DNA of 64,000 nucleotides from Haliotis rubra (lineage: Eukaryota): NCBI RefSeq assembly GCF_003918875.1, contig NW_025766975.1:1058684-1122683 (forward strand), written 5' to 3'. The first letter of the stretch is position 1; each line of letters starts with the position of its first letter. Of this stretch, positions 1-53,481 are shown one piece after another. The position numbers and the translations under genes are program-made. A model generated the notes under the pieces. The model did no database searches, was not told where the DNA came from, and saw nothing but the letters and a program-made list of their open reading frames with translations.

Positions 1-618
1 GTATAAATATTCTACTTCCCTTCCCACGTATTTCCTAATCATATTATTATGTATCAGTCCATTAAACGAAGAGTGATTACAGTAGTATTCTGTACCTATA
101 GAGCTACACCAAAATCGCACTCGAAACAATTGCTTGCGATGATAATTCTTACAAATGCGTGACCACAATCCTTTTACATAAACGTGATACAGATTCTGTC
201 ATCTATTAATCTGTTAATTCCGGCTATTTTTGAGGTTATAACTCATCGTTCTATTGTTTAATCAGGGAGGGAAATAGTTGTCGATGTTCAAACGTCCGTA
301 AAATCTAACCTTGCGATACAGTTATGCTTCGCATGTTGTGTTAGGCACTTTAAGAAGAGCTCAAAGGGTCCAATACAGAGGCTATACTTGTTGTAAGTGT
401 TGCAGCAATTCGTGAGAGCTTCCCACAATAATACAGCATCGTATACCTGACTGTATATACGGCTATACATCTCAGTGCGTGAACACTGTTTATGAAAAAA
501 GTATTGGAGAAATGTCAGTATAAAAAGTACTGAAAAGATTACACCGTGGGGAGCATTAAAGATGTATCTCAGTGTCGAGTGTTTCAGATATATGATGTGT
601 GGAGTATTGAAGACAGTA

Positions 619-812
619 GTGAGTGAATTTAGTTTTACGCCGCGCTCAGCAATATTCCAGCTATATGGCGGCGGTCTGTAAATAATCGAGTCTGGACCAG
701 ACAATCCAGTGATCAACAGCATGAGCATCGATTTGCGTAATTGGGAACCGATGACATGTTTCAACCAAGTCAGCGAGCCTGACCACCCGATCCCGTTAGT
801 CGCCTCTTACGG
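619..812 (-). mobile_element. SINE family B (GAGT/ACTC-tailed), head-truncated copy
   Basis: On the + strand reads gagtgaatttagttttacgccgcgctcagcaatattccagctatatggcggcggtctgtaaataatcgagtctggaccagacaatccagtgatcaac..., the same consensus as >12 other copies. Ends at ...gtcgcctcttacgg without the head portion. Confidence 0.8.
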
Positions 813-1674: not shown

Positions 1675-2767
1675 ATAATATATCTTGGTGATGAAATATT
1701 GTATAGAGTATCGAAGATATATTTCTGTAAAGGAACACGTTATATGGATTGACAACTTCTTTACTGCAATGTATGTAGATGTACACTTGCTTGATAACGG
1801 TGGTAGCATCTTCACCGAAACTTTGCATCCATTACAATAAAGAAGCTGCCAATCCATAAAACGTGTTCTTTTTCATCATACCAGTTTCTGAATACCACTC
1901 AAAGGAGGTGTGTTTCTGTGCAGAGTGTGGAGTATTGGAGAAGTATCACTTTTCCATCCACTCGGTGTTTACATGTGAAACGTTCCCTGTAACACAACAT
2001 GAAGTAATGACATGTTTTAGGTGTGAGCAAGCTGTGTTTCACACAACATTAAGTAAGTTTACATCCGTATCAGGTCGGCCATACAGCAAAGCCATCACAA
2101 CCCAGCATTTGATCCAAATGTCATATTGCTTCACCCATTCCTCGATCTATACTTTTATAAGACTCATTAGCAAGGATTTGTGCTTGTAAATCACCACCCA
2201 AATCCTTATGGACAAGTTCTCTCTATAGGGCAATATGCCACCATGAGATCGCATCATAGATGAATTGTATTGTCTCGTATGCCTCGCTATGGTCTTTACG
2301 GTCAATCCTCGACTGACCACAAGCCACTAACTGCCCTTTGCACGTAAGCCGAGACCCAGACAAGACCAAGAACAAGACTGATTAATCTTCTCCTGATGTG
2401 ACCACGATCCCAGAGTATAGCATTGGTCTCCTTTGTCACACTAACACGTATTTAGCATCCCAATGTGAATCAGATTTGATGGAGCGGGTGATTACAACGC
2501 CATCTTTCTGCTAGAACATTCTTGTAACACAGACATTGAGTTGGAACCCCTTATCGTTTTGTATTAATAGTCAGTCCCATGATTTTATTGTCTTTCCTTC
2601 TGACTAGCATGGGTGGTATTATCTCAGGTTAGCGGGCAGGTCAAATTGAATTTCACCTTTGCAAGGAATTCATGGACCTTGTTTAATCAAATTACCTGGT
2701 CAGCGGACCCTGATTATTTGAACAGGCGTCTTTTATTGATACATTTAATATTTTGTTCTTGAGAATG

Positions 2768-3053
2768 TAGATTGTTTGTTGTTTAACGTCGCACTCAGGA
2801 ATGTTCCTGCTATATGACGTTGGTCTGTAAATAATCGGGTTTGGACCAGACAATCCAGTGATTGACATCTTGAGCATCGATCAACGCAGTTGGGATACGA
2901 TGATATGTGTGAACCAATCCAGCGAGCCTGAGCATCCTATCCCATTTGTCGACTCTAACGAAAAGCATGGGTTGAGGAAGACCAGTTCTGATACTGATCT
3001 TCACGGGTCCATAAACAAATGCTTGTGCTGAGGTCGGAGTCATACAATGGACT
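2768..3053 (-). mobile_element. SINE family B (older, diverged copy inside macro-repeat unit A)
   Basis: Diverged version of the B consensus. It includes the extended head ...cacgggtccataaacaaatgcttgtgctgaggtcggagtcatacaatggactc, which is also seen at 46771-46830. The orthologous copy in unit B lies at 10448-10728. Confidence 0.75.
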
Positions 3054-4698
3054 CAGAATATTTTGATTTCGGAAATGGTTTCGTCGCTATGTTTACATAT
3101 ATACTATGAGGATTGTTTCTTCAGTTACAATAAATTTCCTTGGACTGGTATTTCTGACCTGGTTAATTGTAACCCGGATATTCAGGGGTCTCTTTTGATT
3201 ATTGGCATGGTATGTGTCGTGAGACAATGATCGACGCATTTCTCTGACGTATTTGTCAGCGTGTTTTAGGGTTTAAATCTTAAAGAATGGGTCGAGCGCA
3301 CCGTAATGATACTGTAACAGCAGTAACTGATTACTCAGTGTTGATATGGAGGTTAGACAGGTTCTTAAGAAGAGATGGCACTATGTAAAAATATCGCATT
3401 TGAACTTTCAAGAGAACAGTTTACTTGCATCTGCAATAAACCATTTTGTACCCACATTCACTGTTACGTGTCATGTATTGCACATGGGTTAAACGACTGG
3501 TTGCGTTCAGGTGTGTGTTTGGTGTTTTTCCCCGCCATCTGCAATCTTGCACTTTTCAATGTATTTAATGGCTGTCGTTTTTATCAGTTTCGTAAAAGCA
3601 CCCAATCGGTGTTACATAGGCATAAGTCACGTATTCTTCAGCTGACAATCACATTGCCACTGCACTCAAGCCTATTGGCGCTCGTTCCTATGTTCATAAT
3701 TGACACCTTCCAAAAGATACTTCAATATTGATGCTGAAACCAGTGTGTGTGTCGGTCAGAAGACGATGGATCGAAAATTGGTTTATGCTATAGTCATCAA
3801 TATGTAAGCTAAACATATTTGTCATGTAATAACCGTTTGAACAATATGTTACTTTTGAATCATTTTCAGTGATTCGGAATGATAATTAGCCACGAGAAGA
3901 AGCATTTTGATTTATTGATTTACAAAATGTGTTTGTATGTTCACAAAATAGCTTTCGTTGCTTAAGTTTTAAAGACTGAATGTTCGCAATGGAATGATTT
4001 AGCTACTTGTTATAAACACAGAGAAGTGCTTATGTTAACATTTCTTTTGCTATATTGACATTATTACCAACAGCAAATGAGTATTTTTTCAAATTCATTC
4101 TGTAGTCAGTAGAGACATTTGACTGTGGCCAGTAAACCATGGATGTCGGACCAGCCAATCCAGTGACTAATAATATGAGCAATGATAAAATCAGCACAGT
4201 TGGCACTCAACACAGTCTCCGATCTATTAAGAAGCCTCTTTGGACCAACTTATACTCCTACCACGATGGAAGGTTTAAAGGTTACAATAAGAGTCGATTA
4301 TACAGTTGTGACTGTATCATGATTATGTACTTGTTTCAGCAGTATTACTGAAGTGCGATGTTGTTGTTTGTAAACAATCGAGTCTGGACCAGACAATCCA
4401 ATGATTGTCATCATGCATACGATGACAGAGCATGGATCACTATGAAATAGTGATGATACCAGGTGTTCGCGAAAAGGTGAGCGTATCCTGCCCCGCCGGT
4501 GGCACCCGTCACAAGTATATGGTATGTCTAGTCCATTGTTCACCTAAAATAATTCGGGAAGTAATTATAAAACAAGGATGAAATCTCAAACGCAGGCACA
4601 GTTCCGTTCAGTTGTTGTAAGGACAATTATCAGCTTTTGCCATCAATGTAATTACTTATGTTTTATTTTTATTGCTTTCTAATGTGTCACGAAAGATG

Positions 4699-4800
4699 AA
4701 TGCGTTCGCCCGTCACTTCGGAGGCCTGGGTACAACGTCTGAAGCCGAATTGTGATCCAGTTTAATGTTACTAAAAGGTCGTTAAACCATACTCATTCCT
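4699..4800 (+). mobile_element. SINE family A, 5'-truncated copy (ancestral to macro-repeat)
   Basis: gaatgcgttcgcccgtcac...ggtcgttaaaccatactcattcct. Positional orthologues lie at 11171-11312 and 17355-17486. Confidence 0.65.
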
Positions 4801-7800
4801 GTATGAAATACATTCATCATTGTCATATGTCTATGTTCGATGCTTGGAAAATAATGACATCAAGACATGAGTATATGTGGTAGGAATATACTCATCTGGA
4901 CTGGACTGTGTCCACCATGTAATTACTATAGTGGTCATAGTTACACGTTAACAATACACACGATCTAGACCCCCGCTGATTCATATTATAGTCTGTCTAT
5001 CTAATAATACTTGCTATCTGTGTCGCGAGGCATAATTTCCGCCAGACAAGATGTATATTTATGGTCTATGATTTACAATGCTGAACGCAAATTCTGTAGC
5101 AATGAACCCTTTGTCAATACTGAACACGATAAGCGTATATTTGAATAGTGGTCGAGTGGTCAGTGTGTTTATACAACTGTCCAGACATATAATCATACAT
5201 CATAGGGTTGGTGGCTGAGATACATCAATGTCCATTATTTGACCTTTGAAGAAGATGCATAGACAACTACATTTTGATTATAACGAGAATTTTGGTCTAA
5301 AATATGCATTCTCTATGTTTAGGAGTAGACTAACAATGTAACAAGTAATAATTAAGACGTACTTCCCCCCTTTACTGACATTATATCAATAACATTGGCT
5401 GCTGTATGTATAATTCATTGGGTTGTGTGGCAGTAATTGTCTGGACTGTTAGAAATGTGTTGTTTATGAAACAGCAATGCAGGGTATTTCTAACATGAAG
5501 TATTGACAGGAAAAGGACCTCTTCTCCACATTGACTATAACAATCTTAACACCATTGGGTGAAAATGCGAATTCTTTCATCGATGCCTCATGATACTTCT
5601 TGAGTCAGTGAGTGGTAGTGTAAATGGGTGTGTTTGTTGGACGGCAGTCTGGTGAGTGAGTATTTGCTTAAACATTATGTCTCCCGAGAGGAGCAGAGAT
5701 TCTACTGTTTGGAAGGTAAAAGATACACTTTAAACGTTAATGATAGAGGATCCCCAGTCTCTCTGATACTATGAAACAGATTCCATTCGGCTGTAAAGGA
5801 CTACAACACATATTCTTACCGACGCCGTATCTTGCCACACCTGCTGGAATTGGTTTTTAGATGATTTGTATTTTCAGCCTGGTATTGTGAAATGGGACGT
5901 AAACGTGTCTCCAGATCATCAGTATTTCATGCATTTACGCTCACACTTTGACCATTCCAGAAAGCAGGTGTAAACCAAATTTCTGGTGTCCGTCGACGTG
6001 ATATTTGTGGAATAGAATGAAAGCGGCATAAAACCATATTCACTCATTCTTCAAACAGTAGTGAATACCAGCAACTAACGCCAATCAACTAATGGATGTT
6101 CGCTAAGTAAACATAGTTCTCTCACACTACTTCCATTCAGACATGTCCAACAACAACAATGTGTTATTAAATGGTTTTTTACACCCAGACCCTGACAAAT
6201 TTCCAAATGCATCTAGTGTTTATGTCTGAGTGATCAAAGGAGAATATTCCCGTAAACCAATGTGCTAGTCTAAATGTCAAAGATTTCCGCTACTACTGAG
6301 ATTTGCGGTCACAAGTATGTGTATATTTTGTCATCAGTGTAAATCTAACGTATTTAAAAGAATCGCTTGGCTTTGGAATATTGGGGTCATATGAACAGAG
6401 TTATTTATGGAGATAGTTTGGCGTTTTTGCAGCACCATATAAATCAGGATAAGTTCAGAATCCAATCAATAAATCTGGCATCACTGGTTTTTGACAATAC
6501 TAAGTCTATAATCGCCCAGTAAATAACACGTCAAGCCGACACAACTGGAACAAATACATACAAGCTGTCAAAATTGATTGATGAATTGCCATTTGAAGTA
6601 AGTCTCGAAGAAGACACGATGATCCTTGTCCCTTTACAGAAGGATTTAAAGTTATTTATTGTGTAATTAGAAGTAGGAATAAAGTTTGATAATATTTGAA
6701 AAGGTTCATTGTTGGTGTATTTTGAAATATCTTCAGTTGACTTTGAAATCGTTAAAAGTTTGAAAATTGAACATGGTTGGAGAGAAATCCCGCCACTTTA
6801 ACACAAACAAAGGTCTGTGTATGTACATTCTCGAATTCCAAAGTTATAGTGACATGGAATTTCTTCATTGGTATTTCCTGTGAATAAATGTTTGGATTTG
6901 AACCCGGGAAAGAGTGTGTTAAATGGTTGATGAAACGCCACCAAGCAGTGGTTCTAATTGCACGACATTTGGAAGAGGCAGGACAAAAGCCGAGAAAAAT
7001 GGCCAGCAATGTTCATTTAAGAAGGACAGAAATCAAAGAGCGTAAAAGTTCCACTCAATGTTCTCTTAAGAAGTGAGAAAAACCCCTCTCTTCATCTTCT
7101 GTAACACATTCGACATGCCATGAGGAAAATGATACTTGGAGAGCTCTAAGTATGCCTCAGCTTGGTGCCTCGTAACATGACGTTGGTCGTCGATGCCCAT
7201 GGAAGCCCCATTTGGCGTTAATGGCTACATTTTCAGCAAAATATTCAAGTTACATACAGTCATTTTACATACACAAAGGCTCATGAAAGCCGGAATAGTA
7301 CCAGATTTTCTTATGGCTACGGAAATGGTCTTGCCGTTGTTATTTGCAGAACCGCATGTACTTTCATTCATAATAGATTGAAATGATTCAGTCGCCCACC
7401 AAGTTAAATTTGCACAAGCTAAATCCAGTATTGTAATCGATTGTGGAAACCTATCCACCAAAAGCGATGCAGTTATTATTTCTGTGTACGGAGAGTGGAA
7501 TGGATGGCCACTCGTGAAGAACAGATGACGACACTGGTAATTACATTGTACACTAAGGAGACCATAAAGACAGGGCCACCTGATAAAGCTTGATCACATC
7601 TTCTAATATTCACGCCTTGGCTTCTTTGATGAGTGTTGCTTTAAAGGTTAATGTGACTGTGTTGAAACTCGATGCGTTCTGTAATGCAATGTATGATGTA
7701 GACAGAAGATCTCAAGTGTGAATGAAAAGACAAGAAAAACATCAAAATAGAAAGCATGTAATCTATACGACACGTATTATACAGAGATAGTACATAGGCA

Positions 7801-9345
7801 TAAAAAAACATGCATCTGTGTCTTTGCCCAGGATGGTGCTTTGAATAGATCACTTTTTCGCATCTCGTGATCTCAAAACTGGTATGATCATTATTTCATG
7901 ATAGTAATTCATACACACATGCTAATGATATAGCCGGAATGGTACAATGGACGAGCACTCACAAGAGACATCCTACCAACATGGGAAGTTATTTATATAA
8001 ATGGCCAGGAAAATGAAATATACAGCCATGTTTGAGGGTTTGTAAACATTGAGCTATTAAAGTTGTTTTTCGATAGTGATGTATTTGATGAAAGTATCTA
8101 AGTTGTGTTTTACACCTTAAGTTTGCATTTTGATGCTTTCTGTTGCAAAGTAAGATCAAATACCTGTAACTTCTAAATTTATGCATTAATATCTCTTTGG
8201 GTAATCAGAATGATAATGCTAAGCTTAATGCAAGTTTATTTGATTATTTCGCGAGACATTCTGTGGATAACACACAAACAACGTCGCCATATAAGACATA
8301 AAAGGGAGTCAACAAGAAATTTGGAATGCAAGAGCTGTTCAATTGACAGATTGTCAATTTGTGATAATTTCAAATTCCATTTCCATTATTCCTTTTTCAG
8401 GAGTGCATAAACCGTCTTGACAAACATATATTATACTCCATCAAAGAGGCGAGATTATAATACACTGACGTTTGTAGACAAGTCACAAAACATATGTTTT
8501 GTTTTTTTTCACTTTATTTCTTTCTTACGCATTGGTACAGTTTTATCATTCATACACAACATTATTTCAAATACACAGCACAATAAGTAACAAGCATAAG
8601 TGAGATCGAGTAGGTTATGTAAATAAGTTGTTAGGTTATGTAATAAGTAAACATATGTAATATTTAACTGATATTTGACATATGGTGCAATCGTATCAGT
8701 TCACATGGACAACATTTATACAACTTTCGCGCGGAAAATGTCTGTAAGATTGCATTATGTAGTATTCTCAATTCACAGTACATTATGCTAGCTTCTTTGA
8801 AGTTCATGATGTGACAAGCGCCAGGGTAATCTTCCCAATGCGAATGGTACCAATAATTGTACCAAAGATAACTTAAATACATGCTTGGAAATATCCGCAA
8901 AGAACAACTAATACTGGATAAATGACACTTTTTGACACACGAGGACTGCTAATAAATCCGCCCATCAACCAAGGAAAGACCATTAAGAGGAAACATATCA
9001 AGTGTACAATGAAATACCACAGGTACAAATATATATCAACACTGAAAAGGTTAACAGTCGCCAGTCATAATATAATACAATTGCAAATATCCATTATGAA
9101 AGGTAATGATTTTGAAAGTTTAAGGTATAATGTAACCAATATCTCTTGGATACAGGTTTTAATCAAAACGATAAAGATATTTACTCTTATATCTTTGTCA
9201 TATGAACGTCCAGACCAAATGGATGAAACAGATTCATAGAAACTTCCAGTGGGTTTTTAATGTATAAAGTATGTTTTAGCTATGGGATTCTAGCAATGTC
9301 TATTTACTAATAATGTGCAGAGAAGAGTTAGTGAATGTGTTCAGG

Positions 9346-9492
9346 TTTATGCCGCATTTAGCAATATTATTGCAATATGAAAGTAGGGGAGACCAGAAAT
9401 GGGCTTCATATATCTTAAAAATGACAGGAATCTAATCCGGGTCGTAGGCATGACGTGAAAACGCTTTAAATACTAGGCCACCCCACTGCCCG
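9346..9492 (-). mobile_element. SINE family A copy (present only in unit A)
   Basis: gtttatgccgcatttagcaatattattgcaatatg...ggcatgacgtgaaaacgctttaaatactaggccaccccactgcccg. Unit B diverges from unit A at this exact point (16500 vs 9350). Confidence 0.7.
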
Positions 9493-10447
9493 AATATTGT
9501 AAAGAGAAGAGAAGTGTGTGGACAGTGATTATGACGCTGTTGCTATGGTCATACAGACAGGATAGCCTTTCTGGTAACATTCCTATATTCGTTGGTTTAC
9601 GTCGATGAGTGTTTTGAAAGGTTAATGCTGTCTCTGTTGGTTCTTTAATGAAGTATATGTGGTATAGGTTCTAGGTATCAACGACGAGACAACCAAGGCT
9701 ACCATGACAAGTGTTATTGTTTCGGGACTGTGTGTCTTGTTGAAAGTCTCAATATCAGAACCCAGCGTTCTTTGATCCACATTTCATTTGGGCTTCACCC
9801 ATATATCGACCTACGTTTATCATATATTCATTTGCTAAGATCGACTATGATAAATCACCACACAAATCCTTATGGACAAACTCTTTCTAAAGGGCAACAT
9901 GTCATAATAGCATCGCATCATAGATGAAATGTATTGTCTCGTATGCGTCGCTATGGTCTTTACGGTCAATCCTCGACTGACCACAAGCCACTAACTGCCC
10001 TTTTGCACTTTAGCGGAAACCCAGACAAGACCAAGAACAAGACTGATTAATCTTCTCCTGATGTGACCACGATCCCAGAGTATAGCATTGGTCTCCTTTG
10101 TCACACTAACACGTATTTAGCATCTCCATGTAAATTAGAGTTGATGGAGCGGATGATTACAACGCCATCTTTCTGCTGGAACATTTTTGTAACACAGACA
10201 TTGAGTTGAAAGCCCTCATCGTTTTTGTATTAATAGTCAGTCCCATGATTTTATTGTCTTTCCTTCTGACTAGCGTGGAAGGTATTATTTCACGTTAGCT
10301 GTAGTGTAGCAGTTCAAGTTGAATTTCACCTTCACAAGGAACTTACGGACTTTGTTTAATGAAATTACTTGGTCAGCGGACCCTGATGATTTTTACAGGT
10401 TGCTTTCATTGATAAGTTAACACTTCGTTCTTGTGAATATAGTTTGT

Positions 10448-10728
10448 TTGTTTGTTGTTTAACTCCGCACTCAGGAATGTTCCAGCTATATGACGGGTGG
10501 TCTGTAAATAATCAGGTTTGGACCAGACACTCCAGTGATTGGCATCTTCACCATCGCTCTACGCAATTGAGATACGATGATATGAGTGAACGAAGTCATC
10601 GCTGCTGACCATCCGAACCCGCTAGTTGCCTCTTACGACAAGCATGGGTTGATGAAGACGAATTCTAACACGGATCTTCACGGGTCCATAAACAAATGCT
10701 TGTGATGAGGTCGGTGTCACACAATAGA
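10448..10728 (-). mobile_element. SINE family B (orthologue of the 2768-3053 copy)
   Basis: Same sequence and flanks as the unit-A copy, so the insertion predates the array amplification. Confidence 0.75.
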
Positions 10729-11170
10729 CTTATTTTGATTACGGAAATGATTTCGTCGCTATATTTACATCGATTTGAGGATTCAAGGAGGAGACGTGTG
10801 TTGGCGTGTATGGATGCACTCGTGAGTTACACTCGCTATTGATGATTTGACTACTGTCTCATTATAACACGTTTTGAATGAAATCTGAAAGAAAGATTTG
10901 TGTATTTTTTAATTTTGACCCCTTTGACTCTTTCTTAATGACTTGCGGCAAATACAAGCTCAAATTATTAGAAAATGATATATGTGTTTGTAAAATAATC
11001 ATCATAAATCTCACATACGTCTTTGTTTCTATTTTCTGGTCAAGTTAGATCAGTGAGAACTTTCATTTGTCCGGTAGTTCAGTTCCACTCAGTTGTTTTT
11101 TGGACAAACAATTAACAGCTTTTAAGGTCAACGTCATTTGTTTTAGACTCCTTTCTAATCTGTCACGGAA

Positions 11171-11312
11171 GGTTGGATAGCTCAGTGGTTAAAGCGTTCG
11201 CTTGTCACGTCGTTGGCTCGGGTTCGATTCTGCACATAGGTAGCCGATTTGAAGCCGATGTTTTGGTCCAGTGTAATATTGATAAAACCGGCGTTAAACT
11301 ATACTCACTCAT
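11171..11312 (+). mobile_element. SINE family A, tRNA-like head plus tail
   Basis: ggttggatagctcagtggttaaagcgttcgcttgtcacgtcgttggctcgggttcgattctgcacatagg...gtaatattgataaaaccggcgttaaactatactcactcat. Confidence 0.75.
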
Positions 11313-14300: not shown

Positions 14301-16520
14301 AAAATGGCCAGCAATGTTCATTTAAGAAGGACAGGCATTCAAGAGCGTAAAGGTTCCCCTCAATGTTCTCTTAAGAAGTCAGAAAAAACCTCTCTTCATC
14401 TTCTGTAACACATTCGACATGCCATGAGGAAAATGATACATGGAGAGCTCTAAGTATGCCTCAGCTTGGTGCCTGGTAACATGAAGTTGGTCGTCGATGC
14501 CCATGGAAGCCCCATTTGGCGTTAATGGTGACATTTTCAGCAAAATATTCAAGTTACATACAGTCATTTTACATACACAAAGGCCCATGAAAGCCTGAAT
14601 AGTACAAGATTTTCTTGTGGCTACGGAAATGGTCTTGTCGTTGTTGTTTGCAGAACCGCGTTTATTTTCATTCATAATAGATTGAAATGATTCAGTCGCC
14701 CACCAAGTTAAATTTGCACAAGCTAAATCCAGTATTGTAATCGATTGTGGAAACCTATCCATAAAGCTCTGCAGTTATTATTTCTGTGTACGGAGAGTGG
14801 AATGGATGGCCACTCGTGAAGAACAGATGACGACACTGGTAATTACATTGTACACTAAGGAGACCATAAAGACAGGGCCACCTGATAAAGCCTGATCACA
14901 TCTTCTAATATTCACGCCTTGGCTTCTTTGATGAGTGTTGCTTTAAAGGTTAATGTGACTGTGTTGAAACTCGATGCGTTCTGTAATGCAATGTATGATG
15001 TAGACAGAAGATCTCAAGTGTGAATGAAGAGACAAGAAAGACATCAAAATAGAAAACATGTAATCTATACTACACGTTTTATACAGAGATAGTACATAGA
15101 CATAAAAAACATGCATCTGTGTCTTTGCCCAGGATGGTACTTTGTATAGATCACTTTTTCGCATCTCGTGATCTCAAAACTGGTATCGTCATTATTTCAT
15201 GATAGTAATTCATACACACATGCTAATGATATAGCCGGAATGGTACAATGGACGAGCACTAGGAAGAGACATCCTACCAATATGGGAAGTTATTTATATA
15301 AATGGCCAGGAAAATGAAATATACAGCCATGTTTGAGGGTTTGTAAACATTGAACTATTAAAGTTGTTTTTCGATGGTGATGTATTTGATGAAAGTATCT
15401 AAGTTGTGTTTTACACCTTAAGTTTGCATTTTGATGCTTTCTGTTGCAAAGTAGGATCAAATACCAGTAACTTCTAAATTTATGCATTAATATCTCTTTG
15501 GGAAATCAGAATGATAATGCTAAGCATAATGCAAGTTTATTTGATTATTTCGCGAGACATTATATAGTGGATAACACACAAACAACGTCGCCAGACATAA
15601 AAGGGAGTCAACAAGAAATTTGGAATGCAAGAGCTGTTCAATTGACAGATTGTCAATTTGTGATAATTTCAAATTCCATTTCCATTATTCCTTTTTCAGG
15701 AGTGCATAAACCGTCTTGATAAACATATATTATACTCCATCAAAGAGGCAAGACTATAATACACTGACGTTTGTAGACAAGTCACAAAACATATGTAATA
15801 TTTAACTAATATTTGACATATGATGCAATCGTATCAGTTCACATGTACAACATTTATACAACTTTCGCGCGGAAAATGTCTGTAAGATTGCATTATGTAG
15901 TATTCTCAATTCACAGTACATTATGCTAGCTTCTTTGAAGTTCATGATGTGACAAGCGCCAGGATAATCTTCCCAATGCGAATGGTACCAATAATTGTAC
16001 CAAAGATAACTTAAATACATGCTTGGAAATATCCAAACAACTAATACTGGATAAATGACACTTTTTGACACACGAGGACTACTAATAAATCCGCCCATCA
16101 ACCAAGGAAAGACCATTAAGAGGAAACATATCAAGTGTTCTTAAATTATAAACAAATGAAACTTTACAATGAAATACCACAGGCACAAATATATCAGCAC
16201 TGAAAAGGTTAACAGTCGCCAGTCATGATATAATACAATTGCAAATATCCATTATGAAAGGTAATGATTTTGAAAGTTGAAGGTATAATGTAACGAATAT
16301 CTCTTGGATACAGGTTTTAATCAAAACGATATAGGTATTTACTTTTATATCTTTGTCATATGAACGTCCAGACAAAATGGATGAAACAGCTTCATAGAAA
16401 CTTTCAGTGGGTTGTTAAAGTATGTTTTAGCTATGGGATTCTAGCAATGCCTATTCACTATTATTGTGCAGAGAAGCGTTAGTGAATGTGATTAGGTTTA
16501 TGCCGTTTATGTTTAACTTT

Positions 16521-16670
16521 GGGGAGGGGGGAGGGGGTCACACTTTAGTTTTGATGGGGGGCACTTGTCCTAAGGGGCATATAGCCTAGGGGGCAGTTGT
16601 CCGGGGGCCACAATGGATGGGGGCAGATAGCCAGGGGGCAGTTGTCCGGGGGACAGTTAGCCTGATACCA
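16521..16670. repeat. G-rich degenerate tandem repeats (GGGGG-CA-R-TTG/TAG-CC)
   Basis: ggggaggggggagggggtcacactttagttttgatggggggcacttgtcctaaggggcatatagcctagggggcagttgtccgggggccacaatggatgggggcagatagccagggggcagttgtccgggggacagttagcc. At least 9 runs of G4-5. Found only at the unit B/C junction. Confidence 0.8.
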
Positions 16671-17354
16671 TATTATTGGCAATATGTTTTATTTGTTTTA
16701 CTAAATGTGTTTGTATGTTAACAGCATAGCTCTCGTCGCTCAAGTATTAAGGGATGTTGATTCAAACGATTCTTACAAGAACAGAGCAGTGCTTATGTTA
16801 ACATTTCTTTTGCTACACTGGCATTGTTACGAACATCAGCTGAGACGTTTGACTGCGGCCTGTAAACCATCGAGATTAGACCAGCCAATCCAGTGACTGG
16901 TAATAATTCCTGGTAATAATTCAATAAAGGAGCTACAGGCCCATTATACAGTTACGAAGGTTCACTGATATTGTGAGCCACGATCACAGCAGTCGGAATA
17001 TTGTTAACGCCCTATCAACCAAGTCACCGAATATGTCCAGTCGATCCATTATGTAGCCTCTTAGGACCAGCTAATAATCTCGTCATGATGGAAGGTCAAA
17101 GATTACAATATGACGAATACAATTTTAGTTTCAAATACGTCATGAAGTTAATCTCAGACCCAGATATTGTTCCGTTCAGCTGTTTTTAGAACAAACAAAA
17201 GGTTACAATATGACACATCAAATTTTAGTTTCAATTAAGTCTTGGAGTTATCTCAGACCCAGATAAATTCCAGTTCCATGATCAATTATCAGCTTTTGAG
17301 ATCAACATCATTACTTATATTACTTCTTATAAAATCCCATCAGTCACGGAATAT

Positions 17355-17486
17355 GGGGTAGCCCAGTAGTTAAACCGTTCGCTCGTCACGTCAAAGAGTT
17401 CGATTCTGCACACAGATACAACGACTGAAGGCGATTTATGGTCCAGTGTAATATTGCTAAAAGCGTCGTTAAACCATACTCACTCC
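17355..17486 (+). mobile_element. SINE family A (unit C orthologue)
   Basis: ggggtagcccagtagttaaaccgttcgctcgtcacgtcaaagagttcgattctgcacacag...gtaatattgctaaaagcgtcgttaaaccatactcactcct. Confidence 0.7.
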
Positions 17487-17981
17487 TGTACGATAGACAC
17501 TTATCATCCTCACGGTTCTATGATTAATGCTTGGAAAATATTGACATCGCGACATAAGTATATGTGCGTGGAGCAGACTCATCTCGACTGTGCAGTGTCC
17601 AACATGTTATTACTATACAAGTGGTCATTGTTACGCGTCAACAATACACACGATCAAGACCACGGCTAATTCATTTGATGGCGTGTCTATCTAATAATAC
17701 TTGCTATCTTTGTCGAGGCAAAGTTTCCGCCAGACAAGACGTATATTTATGGTCTAGGATTTACATATGCTGAACGCAAATACTGTAACAATGAGCCCGT
17801 TGTCATTTCGGAACACGATAGGTGTATATTTGAATAGTGGTTGAGTGGTCAGTGTGTTTACACAACTGTCCAGACATATAATCATACGTCATAGGGTTGG
17901 GCCCTGAGATACATCAATGCCCATTGCTTGACCTTTAAAGAAGCTGCATAGACATATACTCTGTGATTATAAGGAGAATCG

Positions 17982-18226
17982 TACCCATGAAGGTCCGGGT
18001 TAGAATATTGATCTTCAGTAACCCATGCTTGTCGTAGGAGGCGACTAACGGGATCGGGTGGTCAGGCTCGCTGACTTGGTTGACACATGTCATCAGGTTC
18101 CCAATTGCGCAGATCGATGCTCATGCTGTTGATCACTGGATTGTCTGGTCCAGACTCGATTATTTACAGACCGCCGCCATCTAGCTGGAATATTGCTGAG
18201 TGAGGCGTAAAGCCAAACTCACTCAT
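17982..18226 (+). mobile_element. SINE family B, young copy-specific insertion with 13-bp TSD
   Basis: Sense-oriented copy (head ...catgaaggtccgggttagaat... to tail ...gcgtaaagccaaactcactcat). It is flanked by perfect direct repeats ataaggagaatcg at 17969-17981 and 18232-18244. It is absent from the orthologous sites in unit A (~5270) and unit B (~11770). Confidence 0.85.
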
Positions 18227-18534
18227 ACACTATAAGGAGAATCGCGGTCTAAAATATGCATTCTCTATGTTTAGGAGTAGGCTAACCATGTAACGTAATA
18301 ATTAAGACGTACTTTCCCCCCTTTACTGACACTATATCAATAACATTGGTTGCTGTATGTATAATTCATTGGGTTGTGTGGCAGTAATTGCTTGGACTGT
18401 TAGAAATGTGTTGTTTATGAAACAGCAGTGTAGGGTACATGAAGTATTGACAGGGAACGGACCTCTACTCCACATTGACTATAACAGTCTTAGCATCATT
18501 GGGTGAACATTCTTTCATCGATGCCTCCTGCTAC

Positions 18535-18660
18535 TTCTCGAGTGAGTGAGTGCAGGACTGAGTGATAGTGTGAGTGGGTGAGTGAGTGAGTGAGTGAGTG
18601 CGGGAATGAGTGATAGTGTGAGTGGGTGAGTGAGTGTGTTCCACGGACGGTGGTCTGGCG
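18535..18660. repeat. (GAGT)n-rich microsatellite block
   Basis: gagtgagtgagtgcaggactgagtgatagtgtgagtgggtgagtgagtgagtgagtgagtgcgggaatgagtgatagtgtgagtgggtgagtgagtg. A homologous block lies at 12060-12130 and 12430-12500. Confidence 0.85.
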
Positions 18661-20934
18661 AGTGAGTGTGTCATTGTGTCAGTGTATGAATATAGTTTTA
18701 CGTCACGCAATTTTCTCGCAACATCACGGACGGTGACACCCGTCTGCAGACATTATGTGTAGCAAACGAAACTGGACCTTCAATGTGAGAGATCTTCTTG
18801 AATCTCATCTCAATATAACGATTTTCCAAAGTTGAAAGATTTGGAGCAGTAAATCTTTTCGACGTACATTTTCCAACACACATCTAAAATAATAATTAAA
18901 ATTTAGGACTGCCTAACTTCTGATGCACGAAAACAGCAAACATTGCATTATGTGATTATTGTATCCTAAATAGTGGAGGAAGTGTTTTATGCCTAACGCT
19001 GCACTCCTGATACTACTGCGATCATTAAAGTGATAGTTGACCGACCATTCAGCGATTATCAATTTTGTTGAAACCACAATTTAAAGTACTTTTTAACAAA
19101 ATTACGTCTCCAGAGAAGAGCAGAGATTCTACTGCTTGGAAGGTAAAAGATACACTTTGAACGTCAATGATAGAGGATCCCCAGTCTCTCTAATACTTTG
19201 AAACAGATTCCATTCGGCTGTAAAGGACTACAACACATATTCTTACCGACGCCGTATCTTGCCACACCTGCTGGAATTGGTTTTTAGATGATTTGTATGT
19301 TCAGCCTGGTATTGTGAAATGGGACGTAAACGTGTCTCCAGATCATCAGTATTTCAGTACATTTACGCTCACACTTTGACCATTCCAGACAGCAGGTGTA
19401 AACCAAATTTCTGTTGTCCCTCGATGTGATATTAGTGGAATAGTATGACAGCGGCGTAAAACCATATTCACTCATTCTCCAAACAGTAGTGAATACAACC
19501 GAGTAGCGCCAATCAACTAATGGATGTTCGCTAAGTAAACAGTGTTCTCTCACACTACTTCCATTTTTACACCCAGTTCCTGACAAATTTCCAAATGCAT
19601 CTAGTGTTTATGTCTGAGTGATCAAAGGAGAATATTCCCGTAAACCAATGTGCCAGTCTAAATGTCAAAGATTTCCGATACTACTGAGATTTGCGGTCAC
19701 AAGTATATGTTATATTTTGTCATCAGTGTAAATCTAACGTATTTAAAAGAATCGCTTGGCTTTGGAATATTGGGGTCATATGAACAGAGTTATTTGTGGA
19801 GATAGTTTGGCGTTTCTGCAGCATCGTATAAATCAGGATAAGTTCAGAATAAAATCAATAATTCTGACACTACTGGTTTCTGACTATATAAGTCTATAAT
19901 CGCCCAGTAAATAACACGTCAAGCCGACAAAACTGGAACTAATAACTTACAGCTGTCAACGTTGATTGATGTATTGCCATTGGAAGTTCGTATCGAAGAA
20001 AACGATGATCCTTGTGCCTTTACGGAGGGATTAAAACTAATGTATTGTGTAAGTAGAAGTAAGGAAAAAAATTGATAATATTTGGAAAGGCACACTGTTT
20101 GTGTATTTTGAAATATCTTCAGTTGACTTTGAAATCGTTGTAAAACTGGATAATTGTTGGTAATAAATCGTGGCAATTTGGAGCCCTATCTATCGAGCGC
20201 TGCAGTTACTATTTCAGTGTACAGAGAGTGGAATAGATGACCACTCGCGAAGAACAGATGACGACACTGGTGATTACATTGTACACTAAGGAGATCATAA
20301 AGACAGGGCCACCTGATAAAGCCTGATCACATCTTCTAATATTCACGCCTTGACTTCTTTGATGAGTGTTGCTTTAAAGGTTAATGTGACTGTGTTGAAA
20401 CTCGATGCGTTCTGTAATGCAGTGTATGATGTAGACAGAAGATCCCAAGTGTGAATGACGAGACAAGAAGGACATCAAAATAGAAAACTTGTAATCTATG
20501 CATATAATACAACGCTAGTACATAGGCATGAAATGCATGCATCTGTGTTTTTACAAAGGATGTGCTTTGTATAGATCACTTTTTCGCATGTGGTGATTAC
20601 AAAACTGGTATCATCATTATTTCATAGTAATTCATACTCGTATGGTAATCATATAGCCGGAATGGTACAAGGTACCAACACCCGTTAGAGACTTCCTACC
20701 AACATGGGAATGGTTTTGTGGCTTTTATTTATATAATATAGCCGGAATGGTACAATGGACCAGCACTCGGAAGAGACATCCTACCAATATGGGAAGTTAT
20801 TTATATAAATTGCCGGAAAAGAAAATATACAGCCATGTTTGAGGGTAACAAAAGACTGAACGAACTGTTGAAATTGTTATTCGATGGTGTTGTATTTGAT
20901 TTGAAGTTTCAATATGTGTATCAAAGTTTGGTTT

Positions 20935-21175
20935 GGTTTGTTAGTTGTTTAATACAGCACTAAGCAATATTCCAACTATATTGCGGCGGTTTTGAAACAA
21001 TCGACCGTGGACCAGAAAGTCCAGTGATCAACATCATGATCATCGGTCTACGCAGTTGAGATACGATGACATGTGAACCAAGTCAGCGAGCCTGACAAGC
21101 CGATCCCATTCGTCTCCTCTTACGACAAGCATGGGTTGCTGAAGACCAATCTAACCCGGATCTTTACGGGTACAA
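20935..21175 (-). mobile_element. SINE family B copy
   Basis: gtttaatacagcactaagcaatattccaactatattgcggcggttttgaaacaatcgaccgtggaccagaaagtccagtgatcaac...tcttacgacaagcatgggttgctgaagaccaatctaacccggatctttacgggtac. Confidence 0.8.
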
Positions 21176-24100
21176 TCCATCAAAGATACGAGACTTTAAC
21201 ACACTGTAGTAAGTAGACTAATGCACACGACAGACACATTCAATATTCAATCTTAATCTTCTCAGTTCACATGTAGGACAATATTACAGATTTCACCCTA
21301 AACATTGCTGTACGATTGCCTTATGTGAACACTCGATGAACTTTATGAAAGCTTCTTTACAGTATCAACATTAGATTTTGAAGTTCATGATATGACAAGC
21401 GCCCGGTAATCTTTCTAATGCCAGTGGTACCATTTATTGTACCAAACGATTACTTAAATACCTGCTTTGAATTGTCCGAAATGAACAAGTGATGATGGAT
21501 GAATGACACATTCTGACACATGACCATGGTTCCTAGTATGGATATCTACCTTCAGATGTGCTGGCGATCTATAGCCCGTGTTTTATATTTATTTGTATTG
21601 TCTTCCTTAATTACACTGTTTTAGTTTTACATGCTAGTTTTATGTTCATATCTGTGATACTCTAGTATTTTTACTGTCCATCGTCGACAGGTTTAACTCT
21701 TCATAATGTTATCATGTTTGTATTATATAAATTGTTTTCGTCACCATATGGCTGAGATATTGCCGCTGTAACGTTAAATATGAACTCACTCACTCTGACA
21801 CATGAGGACTGTTCTTAAATTATATTATACTATATTCCAATGACATACCACAGGCACACATATGTATTAGCTCTGGAAAGGGTAAAAGTCACCAGTCATA
21901 ATATGATAAAATTGCATACAGCCATTACGAAGGTTAATGATTGTGAAAGTTTAAGGTATAATAATAATATATCCTAACGGATAGCCTTTGGGTTCAGGTT
22001 TTAATCAAAGCGATAACGGTATTTACTCTTATAGCCTTGTCATATGAACGTCCTAACAAAATGGTTGAAACAAATTCATAGAAACGTTCAGTAAGCAGTT
22101 AAAGTATGCTTTACCTCTGGTATTCTAGCAATGACTATATTTACTGATATTGTGTACAGACAATGTGGACAATGATGATGCTATTACGATAGATATATAG
22201 ACAGGGCTTTCCGGTAACATTCCTACATTCATATACTGGCTTCAGTTGACGAGTGTTGCTCCGAAAGGTTAATGTTGTCTCTCTTGGCTCTGTAATGAAG
22301 CATATGTAGTAATAGAAGGTGCTAAGTATCAACGACGAGATAGCCAAGGCTCCCATAACGTTACGTTATCGTATGTCTCGTAGAAGGTCTCAATACATAT
22401 AAGGTGCAGGAATTCCGTAGTAAGTGTTATCACCCGTATATGAGTTTTTGTTCGTTACTTTCGCAATTTGAATATAACAAGGTAGCCAACTTTGATGTTT
22501 CATCTACCAAAATATAATGAGGTTATGGTATGATCTAAAAAGGCGGGTATATATAACCGTGAGATGTTGAGTCATATATGTTCATTCAGAAGTGTTACAT
22601 GGACATTTACAAACGAAAATGTATGTTCCTGATCCAGTCATTAATCACGTCAATATATATTGCAGCCATGTCAACAATGTCAATGCATGTCATTATCTCT
22701 ATCCGCTAATATGAAATATAATACATGGTAAATATATTGTAGAAAGCTGAATGGCAGAAGATAAATTGGATACATCTTCATTTCTTTGCCATAAACACTT
22801 TAAATAGAATGTTCCAAATCATTTCTATAATTACAAGAAATCGTGCCGAAAAAACAGATTCTATTTTACGATTCTACCCTTAAACGTTTCGAAACTAAAG
22901 CTTTAAAAAAGCACAAAGTAAAGGATGATATTTCATTGCAACTGCAACATTTTTACCTAGAAGTGGTAATTACCGAATGTACAAAAAATATGGCACGTTA
23001 GAGTCATCTGTGAACAAGGCATCCAATTACGTAGAGGTGTAAGATGTAATATATAGCTACCGAATGATCGCTCTGTTCCTTCCGGGCGTTCTTCAACATC
23101 GTAATCAGTTTGGCCAGTTCATGTTCAGTAAACTGGACATGAACTTCGTCACCAAATTAACCATCGTGATATCCCAAAGCTTCTTCTTCAAACACTTTTA
23201 AAATGAAATATTTTCATGTATTATGTAGCTCATGAAAGGCATAAGTGAGTGAATTTTGAATTTCAGGTTAAGAAGAAGTACACAAGCCATTTCCAGTACC
23301 ATACGAAACCTGTGCTTAGAGCAGAGCCCGTCGATTATATTATAAACATGCGTTACAAAATCACTAACACTTAGTGGTGATACCAGATGTTCGCCAAAAG
23401 ATGAGCATATTCTGCATGTTGCCATCTTAGTTCTACGACTAACCTAAAACCTAGATGTATTACTAAATCAAATCATTATCTCTGCCAAAAAACATATCAA
23501 TTTATGTAATATAAAAAAAATCAATTCCAAAATTCAGTAATTATAAAAATGTATTAAAAGAGATATTTTATGTAGAAAAATGTATTTCAAAGAGAAACAA
23601 TGAAATTGAAAAATTCAATCTTAAATGGAATTCGCTCATCCCAATATTCAGCAACTAATTATTATTACATCTCTACAGCAATGTATCTTCACCTTTTCTG
23701 TGCTTGTTGCTACCATATACCCTTGTTATGGATTTTGTAACCATGGGAACAAATAAAAAACAAAACCAAAAAAGACAAAAACCCAACCTAAACCTAAGCC
23801 AATATTAAAGAATGGGAGCTATGATTAGTGATAAGGCTGCTTTAACAGCTAAAACTGAACAATCACACCAGACCTCGGTTTAGTTACCTATGATTCAAAT
23901 GTGGAAATGTAATCCATATGTTCACAATGAAACGTTTTGAAAGCTTTGCTGTGGCCTTAAATATCGTGATCCTGATCGAACAACGTTTGGGCAAGAGCCG
24001 TATCACGCTCTTTAAAATCTTGATAAAACGATTGTACCTAAAATGTGAAAAGTAAACACCAAAGCATCGGATAAATCTCTGACTAATGAAAAGTGTTGAA

Positions 24101-29000: not shown

Positions 29001-29954
29001 CGGACATAAATCCATCATGGATTAAATAACGGTTCATTTCGGTAAGTGAGTCATTTATAAATGCCATTACCTTTTTGAAACGGACAACAGTTGTTCAAAA
29101 TGCGCTGATTAAGATTGATATCCATGTGAAAGAATCCCGAAATATGGCTTAAATAAATGATGGATGGCGTATCTAAAGATAATGGAGTTTTGAAAGAGTT
29201 GGTATACAAGACAGATGTACATGTTTTCTCAAAAGAGGGGAGGAAGGTAATTCTGAAAACACTTCATTTTATTAGATGTTAGCAAACGAGAGGATCAGTC
29301 TTTCTAAATATGTACATGATACAATGGCTTATGCTTGATGGAATAGGTACATCCAGAACGGGATGCTTGTCGTATTTATCCTTGACAAAGATGAAGCAGT
29401 TGATTCATCAAAGTAGACCAAAGACGGATGTTTGTTTTGTTTCGTTTGGTGATGAAACCATCTCCCGAGGAAAAATGGTCCTGACAGAGAAAGATGGGTG
29501 ATTGTGCTTGTCTATTGGACCTCATGACATAACTGACTCTTCCATCAATTTGGAATTGCATCGTAGTGTCAGATATATGTTTTAATCTTGAAGTGTACTA
29601 TATGAACATCGGTAGAAGTATAACAGACATCCGTGTTGCCTTGCCTTGTGGACATTTGCCCAGAATGACGCAGGTACTTATCAAGGTCCTCTCCAACTCT
29701 GAACGTGTTTATGAGTCTCTATCAACTAATGACGACACCAATTGAGCGTGAAATCAATATCATTTGTTTCAAACAGACAGTCGTTATATGCCTATATTAC
29801 CGATTGAGATGTGTTGTCAAAGTGAATAACCTGAAGGTGTTCCACACAGTGTCAAGTCAATCAGCTAGAGAATGTTCAAGCTCAATGCTGAACGGTGACA
29901 AGCTTTTATTTCACAACCACGCATTAACACAATCGCTGAGAAGGTATTTTCCTA

Positions 29955-30127
29955 GACTGACTGACTAACTGAGTTTAGTTTTACGCCGCTTTTAGCAATA
30001 TTCCAGCAATATCACGGCGGGGGAGACCAGAAATCGGCTTAACACATTGTGCCCAGGTGGGGAATCGAACCCGAGTCTTCGGCGTGACGAGCCAACGCTT
30101 TATCCACTAGGCTACCCCACCGCCCCG
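29955..30127 (-). mobile_element. SINE family A copy with (GACT)n tail, in dup copy 1
   Basis: gactgactgactaactgagtttagttttacgccgcttttagcaatattccagcaatatcacggcggg...ggggaatcgaacccgagtcttcggcgtgacgagccaacgctttatccactaggctaccccaccgccccg. Confidence 0.8.
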
Positions 30128-38286: not shown

Positions 38287-38504
38287 ATTGAGCGTGAAAT
38301 CAATATCATTTGTTTCAAACAGACAGTCGTTATAAGACTATATTACCGATTGAGATGTGTTGTCAAAGTGAATAACCTGAAGGTGTTCCACACAGTGTCA
38401 AGTCAATCAGCTAGAGAATGTTTAAGCTCAATGCTGGACGGTGACAAACTTTTATTTCACAATCACGCATTAACACAATCGCTGAGAAGGTATTTTCCTA
38501 GACT

Positions 38505-53478: not shown

Positions 53479-53481
53479 CAT

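What the first reader, a model, noticed from the sequence alone, without database searches (positions are those of the whole stretch)
2085..22400. Three-unit macro tandem array (~6-7.7 kb units) with unit-specific indels and a datable SINE insertion
Units A (2085-9765), B (9766-16690) and C (16691-22400) share all major blocks at about 95-97% identity. They differ by large indels: A has extra sequence at 3770-4140 and 9350-9765; B and C have an extra 0.6-0.9-kb (GAGT)n/SINE block; C lacks the 14090-14750 equivalent and has an internal 90-bp duplication. Several SINEs (2768, 4699 and orthologues) predate the amplification. The sense-oriented family-B SINE at 17982-18226 is unique to unit C and has a perfect 13-bp TSD. 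The short ORFs shared between units (for example 6752-7009 vs 14057-14314) differ at about as many codons as nucleotides, so they show no sign of purifying selection.
Basis: seen in the sequence. Interest (0 to 1): 0.5.

Follow-up and report, generated by a model that had tools for sequence, protein, structure and literature searches.

The report
Decayed three-copy tandem duplication, abalone-type DNA
A roughly 7.7-kb stretch of non-coding, SINE-littered DNA in an abalone-like genome was copied head-to-tail into three units that later exchanged sequence, lost pieces and picked up new SINEs; this is ordinary neutral genome turnover, not a gene or a functional element.

Summary
The three-unit head-to-tail array is real. 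The refined units are A 2094-9753, B 9754-16509, a 169-bp G-rich filler at 16510-16678, and C 16679-22395. The claimed uniform 95-97% identity is wrong. A and B differ by 13-18% in their 5' third and by 3-4% in their 3' 3 kb. C differs from A and B by 4-5% in one central block and by 10-21% further 3'. The share of unit-specific substitutions changes sharply along the unit (chi-square p about 1e-30). The units therefore have different genealogies in different segments, which points to gene conversion or unequal crossing-over.

The only intact unit junction (9753|9754) has 1-bp microhomology, so the founding duplication was non-homologous. The C-specific SINE (17982-18230) is confirmed, with a perfect 14-bp target-site duplication (TSD) and empty sites in A and B. 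At least five further unit-specific insertions exist, four of them with TSDs.

I found no coding or RNA signal. There were no Pfam hits, no homologue among 1.84 billion proteins, pN/pS about 0.85, and no Rfam match. Transposon proteins and SINEs point to a Haliotis-type genome. A second, independent tandem duplication lies at 27178-42099.

Verdict: an ordinary, old, decaying tandem segmental duplication. Copy-number variation between individuals (VNTR behaviour) could not be tested.

The parts
2094..9753 (+). Unit A, 7660 bp, the most complete copy.
   Evidence: A/B homology begins at 2094<->9754. A/C homology ends at 9753/9754<->22395. Self-BLAST.
9754..16509 (+). Unit B. It lacks the equivalent of A 3099-4598 and of A 9361-9753.
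9753..9754 (.). The only intact unit junction (end of unit | start of unit). It has 1-bp (A) microhomology.
   Evidence...GTCTCAAT|ATCAGAACC, compared with the left flank ...AAAGCC|ATCACAACC and the right end ...GTCTCAATA|CATATAAGG.
16510..16678 (+). B|C junction filler: a G-rich degenerate minisatellite with a period of about 15 bp, (GGGGGCAGTTGTCCG)n. It replaces about 2.2 kb (the end of B plus the start of C).
   Evidence: The motif is unique in the window.
16679..22395 (+). Unit C. It starts at the equivalent of A 3902 and ends at the true unit end.
2772..3011 (-). Old-subfamily S1 SINE with an (AAAC)n tail, present before the duplication. Its orthologue in B is at 10443-10688, 16% diverged.
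10443..10688 (-). Orthologue in unit B of the S1 SINE at 2772-3011.
11171..11311 (+). tRNA-derived R2-type SINE present in all three units, so it pre-dates the duplication. Orthologues: A about 4690-4830 and C about 17354-17485.
   Evidence: The family's tRNA head is detected by Rfam at 30050-30121.
12437..12991 (-). Antisense SINE body plus (GAGT)n, shared by B and C (C 18590-19098, 93-97% identical). A has only the (GAGT)n part (5600-5660).
12120..12436 (-). B-only R3 retroposon with an imperfect TSD of about 19 bp (TGAATAAGTGAG.GAGTGA).
17982..18230 (+). C-only young-subfamily S1 SINE with an (ACTC)n tail. It has a perfect 14-bp TSD at 17968-17981 / 18231-18244 and is about 2% from the young-subfamily consensus.
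20935..21176 (-). C-only old-subfamily S1 SINE. It replaces about 320 bp that are present in A and B (B 15415-15735).
21524..21795 (+). C-only R3 retroposon with a perfect 10-bp TSD, TGACACATGA (21514-21523 / 21796-21805). Empty sites are present in A and B.
9328..9502 (-). R2 tRNA-SINE insertion in A with TSD AGAGAAGAG (9319-9327 / 9503-9511). B keeps its first 27 bp (16479-16505). C has the empty site (about 22160).
8498..8648 (.). A-only 151-bp insertion flanked by the 10-bp TSD AAACATATGT (8488-8497 / 8649-8658).
20648..20817 (+). C-only 85-bp tandem duplication. The two copies are 84% identical.
6799..7443 (+). Block present in A and B (B 14092-14747) and absent from C at 20157-20179.
3099..4598 (+). 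Segment of A with no counterpart in B, which has an unrelated 10771-11079 instead. The part 3902-4598 is colinear with C 16679-17194.

Best explanation
This is an old, local, head-to-tail triplication of a roughly 7.7-kb stretch of non-coding DNA in an abalone-type (Haliotis-like) genome. The stretch already carried SINEs when it was copied.

Proposed history:
1. The founding copy step was a non-homologous tandem duplication, because the one intact junction has only 1-bp microhomology (shown). Deepest pairwise divergence is about 17-21% (shown).
2. The units then exchanged sequence by unequal crossing-over and/or gene conversion (inferred from the pattern below). One central segment is now about 95% identical in all three units. 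The 3' 3 kb is 96-97% identical between A and B only. A short segment is closest between B and C.
3. Deletions eroded the array (inferred polarity). B lost 1.5 kb internally. About 2.2 kb across the B|C junction was replaced by a 169-bp G-rich minisatellite. C lost 0.65 kb and 0.32 kb. A lost a SINE body.
4. At least six retroposon or other insertions entered individual units, five of them flanked by TSDs (shown).

The array encodes nothing recognisable and is evolving neutrally. Shown: the anatomy, the junction, the TSDs with their empty sites, the mosaic and the lack of coding signal. Inferred: the order and number of exchange events, and the polarity of the indels.
For: Array: colinear kb-scale self-matches.

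Junction: sequences show 1-bp microhomology.

Mosaic: the counts of substitutions private to A/B/C are 91/73/70 over A 4615-6463 and 32/19/221 over 6464-9326 (chi-square p = 2.6e-30). A-B divergence is 0.13-0.18 over 2094-5193, 0.05 over 5686-6463 and 0.027-0.043 over 6464-9326. The B-C distance is the lowest of the three pairs over 5503-5722 (0.10 vs 0.16-0.18), next to the block shared only by B and C.

Discordant shared characters: the R2 SINE insertion is shared by A and B with an empty site in C. The SINE block is shared by B and C.

Private insertions with TSDs.

No function detected:
- 0 Pfam families in all ORFs of at least 70 aa within 1-24000.
- 0 hits for the longest ORF against 1.84 billion representative proteins.
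- Pooled pS 0.039 vs pN 0.033 over six shared ORFs.
- No codon periodicity in the substitutions.
- No Rfam match at E <= 1.

Not a dispersed repeat: in 104 kb of Haliotis cracherodii and H. rufescens DNA, only the SINE parts of the units find matches.

Host type: the best hits of the MULE transposase are Haliotis species.
Against: There is no outgroup or orthologous single-copy locus. The unit tree therefore cannot be rooted, and indel polarity (insertion or deletion) is inferred only where TSDs and empty sites exist.

A simple single unequal-crossover model (B = C-like head + A-like tail) fits the 3' half and the block shared by B and C. It fails over 4615-5500, where all three pairs are equally distant, so several events have to be invoked.

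The absence of function rests on negative searches, and short exons or regulatory roles would escape them. Only one assembly is available.
Confidence: 0.8

Rival explanations
1. A true macrosatellite: a copy-number-variable array kept homogeneous by frequent unequal exchange. It might have a chromatin, regulatory or small-RNA-cluster role, with this allele happening to have three units.
For: Units are kb-scale and head-to-tail. There is clear evidence of past inter-unit exchange. The region traps SINEs in both orientations.
Against: There are only three units. Divergence reaches 17-21% in places, and each unit carries large private deletions and insertions. This means homogenisation is rare and old. 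No RNA family or coding signal was found. Copy-number variation could not be tested.
Confidence: 0.08
2. An assembly artefact: haplotypes or collapsed reads of a single-copy or two-copy locus were falsely laid out in tandem.
For: A and B differ by only 3-4% over their 3' 3 kb. That is within reach of allelic divergence in highly heterozygous marine invertebrates (own knowledge).
Against: The same two units differ by 13-18% in their 5' third. There are no N gaps. The A|B junction is a clean sequence join. A, B and C each carry private TSD-flanked insertions. C is far too diverged to be an allele.
Confidence: 0.04
3. Each unit is a copy of a large mobile element, or a fragment of one (LTR element, Helitron, Maverick or a composite transposon), inserted or amplified in tandem.
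For: The units are full of retroposon pieces. Several ORFs of 70-130 aa lie on the minus strand in 6534-8948.
Against: There are no terminal direct or inverted repeats per unit. No transposase, RT or integrase domain was found in any ORF. The longest ORF has no homologues. Units abut directly, with no TSD around each unit. No non-SINE part of the unit recurs elsewhere in the 64-kb window or in 104 kb of Haliotis DNA.
Confidence: 0.05
4. A tandemly duplicated gene or pseudogene family whose exons lie in the better-conserved central and 3' blocks.
For: The central block 5723-6463 is about 95-96% identical in all three units, more than its neighbours. ORFs are shared between A and B.
Against: pN/pS is about 0.85, with 38.5 non-synonymous vs 11.5 synonymous differences. 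ORFs are broken in one or other unit. There are no Pfam hits and no homologue among 1.84e9 proteins. Substitutions show no 3-base periodicity.
Confidence: 0.03

Closest known systems
Tandem segmental duplications (local copy-number gains formed by non-homologous or microhomology-mediated joining, later reshaped by non-allelic homologous exchange)
   Same: The copies are direct, adjacent, kb-scale and colinear. The junction is blunt with 1-bp microhomology. Genealogies are discordant along the copies, as expected from gene conversion or unequal crossing-over. Decay proceeds through indels and transposon insertions.
   Different: Much of the array is below the conventional 90% identity used to call segmental duplications (own knowledge of that convention). 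One of the two junctions has been destroyed and replaced by a minisatellite.
Human macrosatellites such as DXZ4 (12-100 tandem 3-kb units, PMC3287207) and D4Z4, RS447 and others (PMC3018141)
   Same: A head-to-tail array of kb-scale units, not obviously protein-coding, with evidence of inter-unit exchange.
   Different: There are three units instead of tens. The units are heterogeneous (68-99% identity) and differ in length by 2 kb. No evidence on copy-number polymorphism or chromatin role is available.
Mollusc SINE families (tRNA-derived and LINE-promoter SINEs with shared tails and terminal simple repeats; Matetovici et al. 2016, PMC4758252)
   Same: The S1, R2 and R3 elements are 150-320 bp long, multi-copy and TSD-flanked. 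They end in short tandem repeats, (ACTC)n or (AAAC)n. Different heads share a common 3' tail, the 'jigsaw' organisation described for gastropod and bivalve SINEs. R2 has a tRNA-like head (Rfam).
   Different: I could not assign them to a named family (MESC, LP, Meta and others), because no consensus library was available. A tRNA head was not detectable for S1.

Membership tests
Macrosatellite (VNTR of kb-scale units) | Uninterrupted head-to-tail array of units of at least about 1 kb | tested here: met
   Three colinear direct units of 7.7, 6.8 and 5.7 kb. One junction is interrupted by a 169-bp filler.
Macrosatellite (VNTR of kb-scale units) | Many near-identical units (e.g. DXZ4 has 12-100 units, PMC3287207) | tested here: not met
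   Three units only. No further unit lies up- or downstream. Pairwise identity is 68-99% depending on the segment.
Macrosatellite (VNTR of kb-scale units) | Copy number polymorphic between individuals | not testable with these tools
   Only one assembly window is available. Exact-protein look-ups and a metagenome scan found no other copy of the locus.
Tandem segmental duplication | Adjacent direct copies of at least 1 kb that are colinear outside transposon insertions | tested here: met
Tandem segmental duplication | A novel end-to-start junction absent from the flanks | tested here: met
   9753|9754 joins the unit end (= 22395) to the unit start (= 2094) with 1-bp microhomology.
Tandem segmental duplication | At least 90% identity (conventional threshold, own knowledge) | tested here: inconclusive
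   Met for A-B over 5200-9350 and for all three units over 5200-6460. Not met for A-B over 2094-5193 (82-87%) or for C vs A/B over most of 6464-9326 (79-90%).
Concerted evolution (gene conversion / unequal crossing-over among tandem paralogues) | Different segments of the units support different relationships, beyond rate variation | tested here: met
   The heterogeneity of private-substitution counts gives chi-square p = 2.6e-30. The insertion shared by A+B conflicts with the block shared by B+C.
Concerted evolution (gene conversion / unequal crossing-over among tandem paralogues) | Identified donor, recipient and tract ends, using an outgroup | not testable with these tools
   No orthologous locus from another species or individual could be retrieved.
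SINE retroposition (element at 17982-18230) | Member of a short, multi-copy interspersed family | tested here: met
   There are 11 copies in the window. About 17 overlapping hits occur in 104 kb of Haliotis DNA.
SINE retroposition (element at 17982-18230) | Target-site duplication plus an empty site in homologous sequence | tested here: met
   Perfect 14-bp TSD, with empty sites in units A and B.
SINE retroposition (element at 17982-18230) | Pol III-type (tRNA, 5S or 7SL) head | tested here: inconclusive
   ARAGORN and Rfam find no tRNA in S1. The related R2 family, which shares the same tail, has a tRNA hit of 32.1 bits at 30050-30121.
Tandem protein-coding gene family | Conserved ORF or domain under purifying selection | tested here: not met
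   No Pfam hits. No homologues. pN/pS about 0.85. No codon periodicity.
Large autonomous transposable element | Terminal repeats and/or transposition proteins; dispersed copies | tested here: not met
   No terminal repeats within units. No transposon protein domains. No other copies in the window or in 104 kb of Haliotis DNA. A genome-wide count was not possible.

The most novel reading that the evidence does not exclude
The locus is a genuinely copy-number-variable macrosatellite of an abalone genome, and this allele has three units. Recurrent unequal exchange would explain the mosaic. The array, with its neighbouring second array at 27178-42099, would mark a duplication-prone, SINE-trapping region that might act as a small-RNA (piRNA-type) source or serve as a hypervariable population marker.
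Probability: 0.08. Interest if true: 0.35.

Novelty: new member of a known kind. Interest (0 to 1): 0.15.

Why it matters
It matters little beyond annotation. The locus is a clean worked example of how a tandem segmental duplication ages in a mollusc genome. It shows a non-homologous founding junction, later patchy homogenisation by gene conversion or unequal exchange, loss of one junction, and stepwise SINE colonisation. The SINEs give a relative time-scale: old-subfamily SINEs pre-date the duplication and are 16% diverged between units, while a young-subfamily SINE about 2% from its consensus post-dates it.

For assembly and annotation work it is a caution. Such arrays should not be merged as haplotigs, and their short ORFs should not be called genes. 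If the array proved to vary in copy number it could serve as a population marker in abalone, but nothing here shows that.

Tried and rejected
1. Coding potential. Every stop-to-stop ORF of at least 70 aa in 1-24000 was scanned against Pfam, with no hits. The longest array ORF (131 aa, 14382-14774, minus strand) was searched with phmmer against 1.84e9 proteins, with 0 hits. NG86-type pN/pS on six A/B ORF pairs was about 0.85. The codon-position periodicity of 132 A-B substitutions had a lowest p of 0.039 among 22 windows, which is not significant.

2. RNA genes. Rfam at gathering threshold on the whole window found only a tRNA-like SINE head at 30050-30121. Rfam at E <= 1 on 1900-22600 found nothing. 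ARAGORN found nothing.

3. Finding the locus elsewhere. Exact-protein look-ups for four window ORFs found none on record. An exact 32-mer from the block conserved in all three units had no match in JGI metagenome contigs. The look-up for P0005 was not on record.

4. A single unequal-crossover model (B = C head + A tail) was rejected as sufficient, because B-C is not closer than A-B over 4615-5500.

5. A model in which B and C arose by an internal duplication of unit 2 was rejected. The R2 SINE straddling B's end-point is absent from C, and C is the most diverged unit in the 3' half.

6. Homology between array 1 and array 2 was checked. Only shared SINEs match.

7. A fourth unit up- or downstream was looked for and not found.

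Full report
CONTEXT. The window has 38% G+C, a CpG observed/expected ratio of 0.76, and no N gaps. It is rich in short interspersed repeats and transposon remnants. These include a MULE transposase (Pfam E = 4.8e-12), a reverse-transcriptase fragment and Tc1/mariner-type DDE_3/HTH pieces. The MULE ORF's best database relatives are from abalones (Haliotis asinina, H. cracherodii, H. rubra, H. rufescens) and other molluscs. The commonest SINE of the window (S1) occurs about ten times in a 20-kb H. rufescens contig at up to 91% identity. The window therefore comes from an abalone-like vetigastropod genome. This is an inference; the exact species was not identified.

1. IS THE ARRAY THERE? Yes. 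Self-BLAST gives kb-long direct matches at offsets of about 7.3-7.7 kb, about 5.4-6.5 kb and about 12.6-13.4 kb. A three-way MAFFT alignment is colinear.
- The A/B homology starts exactly at 2094<->9754.
- The A/C homology ends exactly at 9753/9754<->22395.
- Nothing resembling a unit start follows 22395, and nothing resembling a unit end precedes 2094.
- The refined units are A 2094-9753 (7660 bp), B 9754-16509 and C 16679-22395, with 169 bp of unrelated G-rich sequence between B and C.

2. Identity is not 95-97% throughout. Counting substitutions only, the distances by segment of unit A are:

A coordinates | A-B | A-C | B-C
2094-3098 | 13.3% | no C copy | no C copy
4615-5193 | 17.0% (17.6% with A/B-only columns) | 16.6% | 15.6%
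5194-5624 | 9.7% | see next row | see next row
5194-5502 | 8.7% | 8.3% | 8.7%
5503-5722 | 17.9% | 16.3% | 10.2%
5723-6463 | 4.3% | 4.7% | 4.4%
6464-9326 | 2.7-4.3% | 11-21% | 10-21%

Several 'extras' are really losses elsewhere.
- A 3099-4598 has no counterpart in B, but 3902-4598 is colinear with the start of C.
- A 9517-9753 is shared with C 22164-22395.
- C has no copy of A 2094-3901.

The other details are confirmed:
- the B/C extra (GAGT)n/SINE block;
- the 0.65-kb block missing from C;
- the 85-bp tandem duplication in C;
- the pre-duplication SINEs;
- the C-specific SINE.

3. MOSAIC GENEALOGY. Substitutions private to A, B and C number 91/73/70 over A 4615-6463, which is a star-like pattern. 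Over 6464-9326 they number 32/19/221, so A and B are sisters and C sits on a long branch. The chi-square test gives p = 2.6e-30.

Rate variation alone scales all branches together and cannot change these proportions. Different segments therefore have different histories. Shared rare events disagree in the same way.
- An R2 tRNA-SINE (9328-9502, TSD AGAGAAGAG) is present in A. Its first 27 bp survive in B (16479-16505). C has the empty site.
- An antisense SINE block is shared by B and C at 93-97% identity but is absent from A. The flanking segment 5503-5722 is the only place where B-C is the closest pair.

The simplest reading is an old, near-simultaneous triplication with deepest distances of about 17-21%. 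Several unequal crossing-over or gene-conversion events followed. The most recent covered about 3 kb between A and B. A single-crossover hybrid-unit model and an 'internal duplication of unit 2' model were each tested against these data and found insufficient (see Tried and rejected).

4. JUNCTIONS AND MECHANISM. The intact junction reads ...GTCTCAAT|ATCAGAACC. Compared with the left flank and the right end, only one base (A) is ambiguous. This points to a non-homologous or microhomology-mediated founding event, not recombination between flanking repeats.

The B|C junction is different. B stops at the equivalent of A 9360, inside the R2 SINE. C starts at the equivalent of A 3902. Between them lies a degenerate minisatellite with a period of about 15 bp, (GGGGGCAGTTGTCCG)n, which is unique in the window. 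I interpret this as a later deletion of about 2.2 kb with filler (inference).

5. POST-DUPLICATION INSERTIONS.
- A young-subfamily S1 SINE in C (17982-18230). It has a perfect 14-bp TSD, TATAAGGAGAATCG, and empty sites in A and B. It is about 2% from the young-subfamily consensus.
- An old-subfamily S1 in C at about 20935-21176, which replaces about 320 bp.
- An R3 element in C (21524-21795, perfect 10-bp TSD) and another in B (12120-12436, TSD of about 19 bp).
- A 151-bp insertion in A (8498-8648, 10-bp TSD).
- The R2 SINE shared by A and B, described above.

The pre-duplication S1 copies (2772-3011 and 10443-10688) are 16% apart. That matches the 5'-block divergence and gives a consistent relative chronology.

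6. FUNCTION. Nothing was detected.
- No Pfam family in any ORF of at least 70 aa.
- No homologue of the longest ORF among 1.84 billion representative proteins.
- Over six shared ORFs, pooled synonymous divergence is 0.039 and non-synonymous divergence is 0.033.
- No codon periodicity.
- No Rfam match even at E <= 1.
- In 104 kb of Haliotis DNA sampled around unrelated MULE genes, only the SINE portions of the units find matches. The bulk of the unit is therefore not a high-copy repeat, within the limit of that sample.

7. COMPARISON WITH KNOWN KINDS. It works like any tandem segmental duplication undergoing occasional concerted evolution and decay. It resembles macrosatellites only in unit size and orientation. 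It fails the 'many homogeneous units' criterion (DXZ4 has 12-100 3-kb units, PMC3287207; see also PMC3018141), and its polymorphism is untested. The SINEs show the modular, shared-tail organisation described for gastropod and bivalve SINEs (PMC4758252), but I could not assign them to a named family.

8. VERDICT. This is a real feature with an ordinary explanation. The most informative addition is the statistically clear mosaic of unit relationships. Interest is low (0.15). The locus is a new instance of a known kind.

Noticed in passing
window 27178-42099, plus 46278-48223: There is a second, independent tandem duplication: units 27178-33575 and 33576-42099, 94-95% identical. Its junction also has 1-bp (A) microhomology. 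An older partial third copy (72-76% identity) lies 4 kb downstream at 46278-48223. It shares only SINEs with array 1. The region seems prone to local duplication.
   Followed up: partly
window 36083-38283: A 2.2-kb MULE DNA transposon is inserted in unit 2 of the second array. It has terminal inverted repeats of about 36 bp and an 8-11-bp TSD, (CCA)ATTGAGCG. The empty site is in unit 1 at about 29745. Its 323-aa transposase ORF (Pfam MULE, E = 4.8e-12) is 46-78% identical to Haliotis proteins.
   Followed up: yes
window 16510-16678: The filler at the B|C junction is a G-rich degenerate minisatellite with a period of about 15 bp, (GGGGGCAGTTGTCCG)n. It has runs of 4-6 G that might form G-quadruplexes, it is unique in the window, and it sits exactly where about 2.2 kb of array was lost.
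   Followed up: partly
window 618-811, 1360-1602, 2772-3011, 10443-10688, 17982-18230, 20935-21176, 32509-32750, 41043-41281, 44755-44949, 46824-47040, 53303-53480: The S1 SINE family (about 250 bp) has two subfamilies. The younger ends in (ACTC)n and the older in (AAAC)n. S1, the tRNA-derived R2 family (962-1126, 9328-9502, 29970-30127, 38509-38673, 11171-11311) and R3 share a 3' tail of about 45 nt, which suggests one LINE partner. S1 is very abundant in H. cracherodii and H. rufescens contigs.
   Followed up: partly
window 30050-30121 (-): This is the only Rfam hit above gathering score in the window: tRNA, 32.1 bits. It is the head of an R2 SINE, not a tRNA gene, and ARAGORN calls no tRNA in the window.
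   Followed up: yes
window 42235-43131 (-), 58968-59381 (+), 31973-32272 (-), 50503-51606 (-): There are degraded Tc1/mariner-type transposase pieces (DDE_3 and HTH domains, with frameshifts) and a 368-aa reverse-transcriptase fragment (RVT_1). No host gene was recognised anywhere in the window among ORFs of at least 70 aa; only some of the ORFs beyond 24000 were scanned.
   Followed up: partly
window 44142-44512; 54377-54447 / 54623-54693: There is a 167-bp tandem repeat of 2.3 copies at 79% identity. Separately, a perfect 71-bp inverted repeat has arms 175 bp apart, which may be the ends of a small foldback or MITE-like element.
   Followed up: no
window 6534-8948 and 13860-16140, minus strand: All six shared ORFs of 70-130 aa in the A/B 3' half lie on the minus strand. 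They have no homologues and show no selection signal. The likely cause is strand-asymmetric base composition, but the bias itself was not tested against shuffles.
   Followed up: partly
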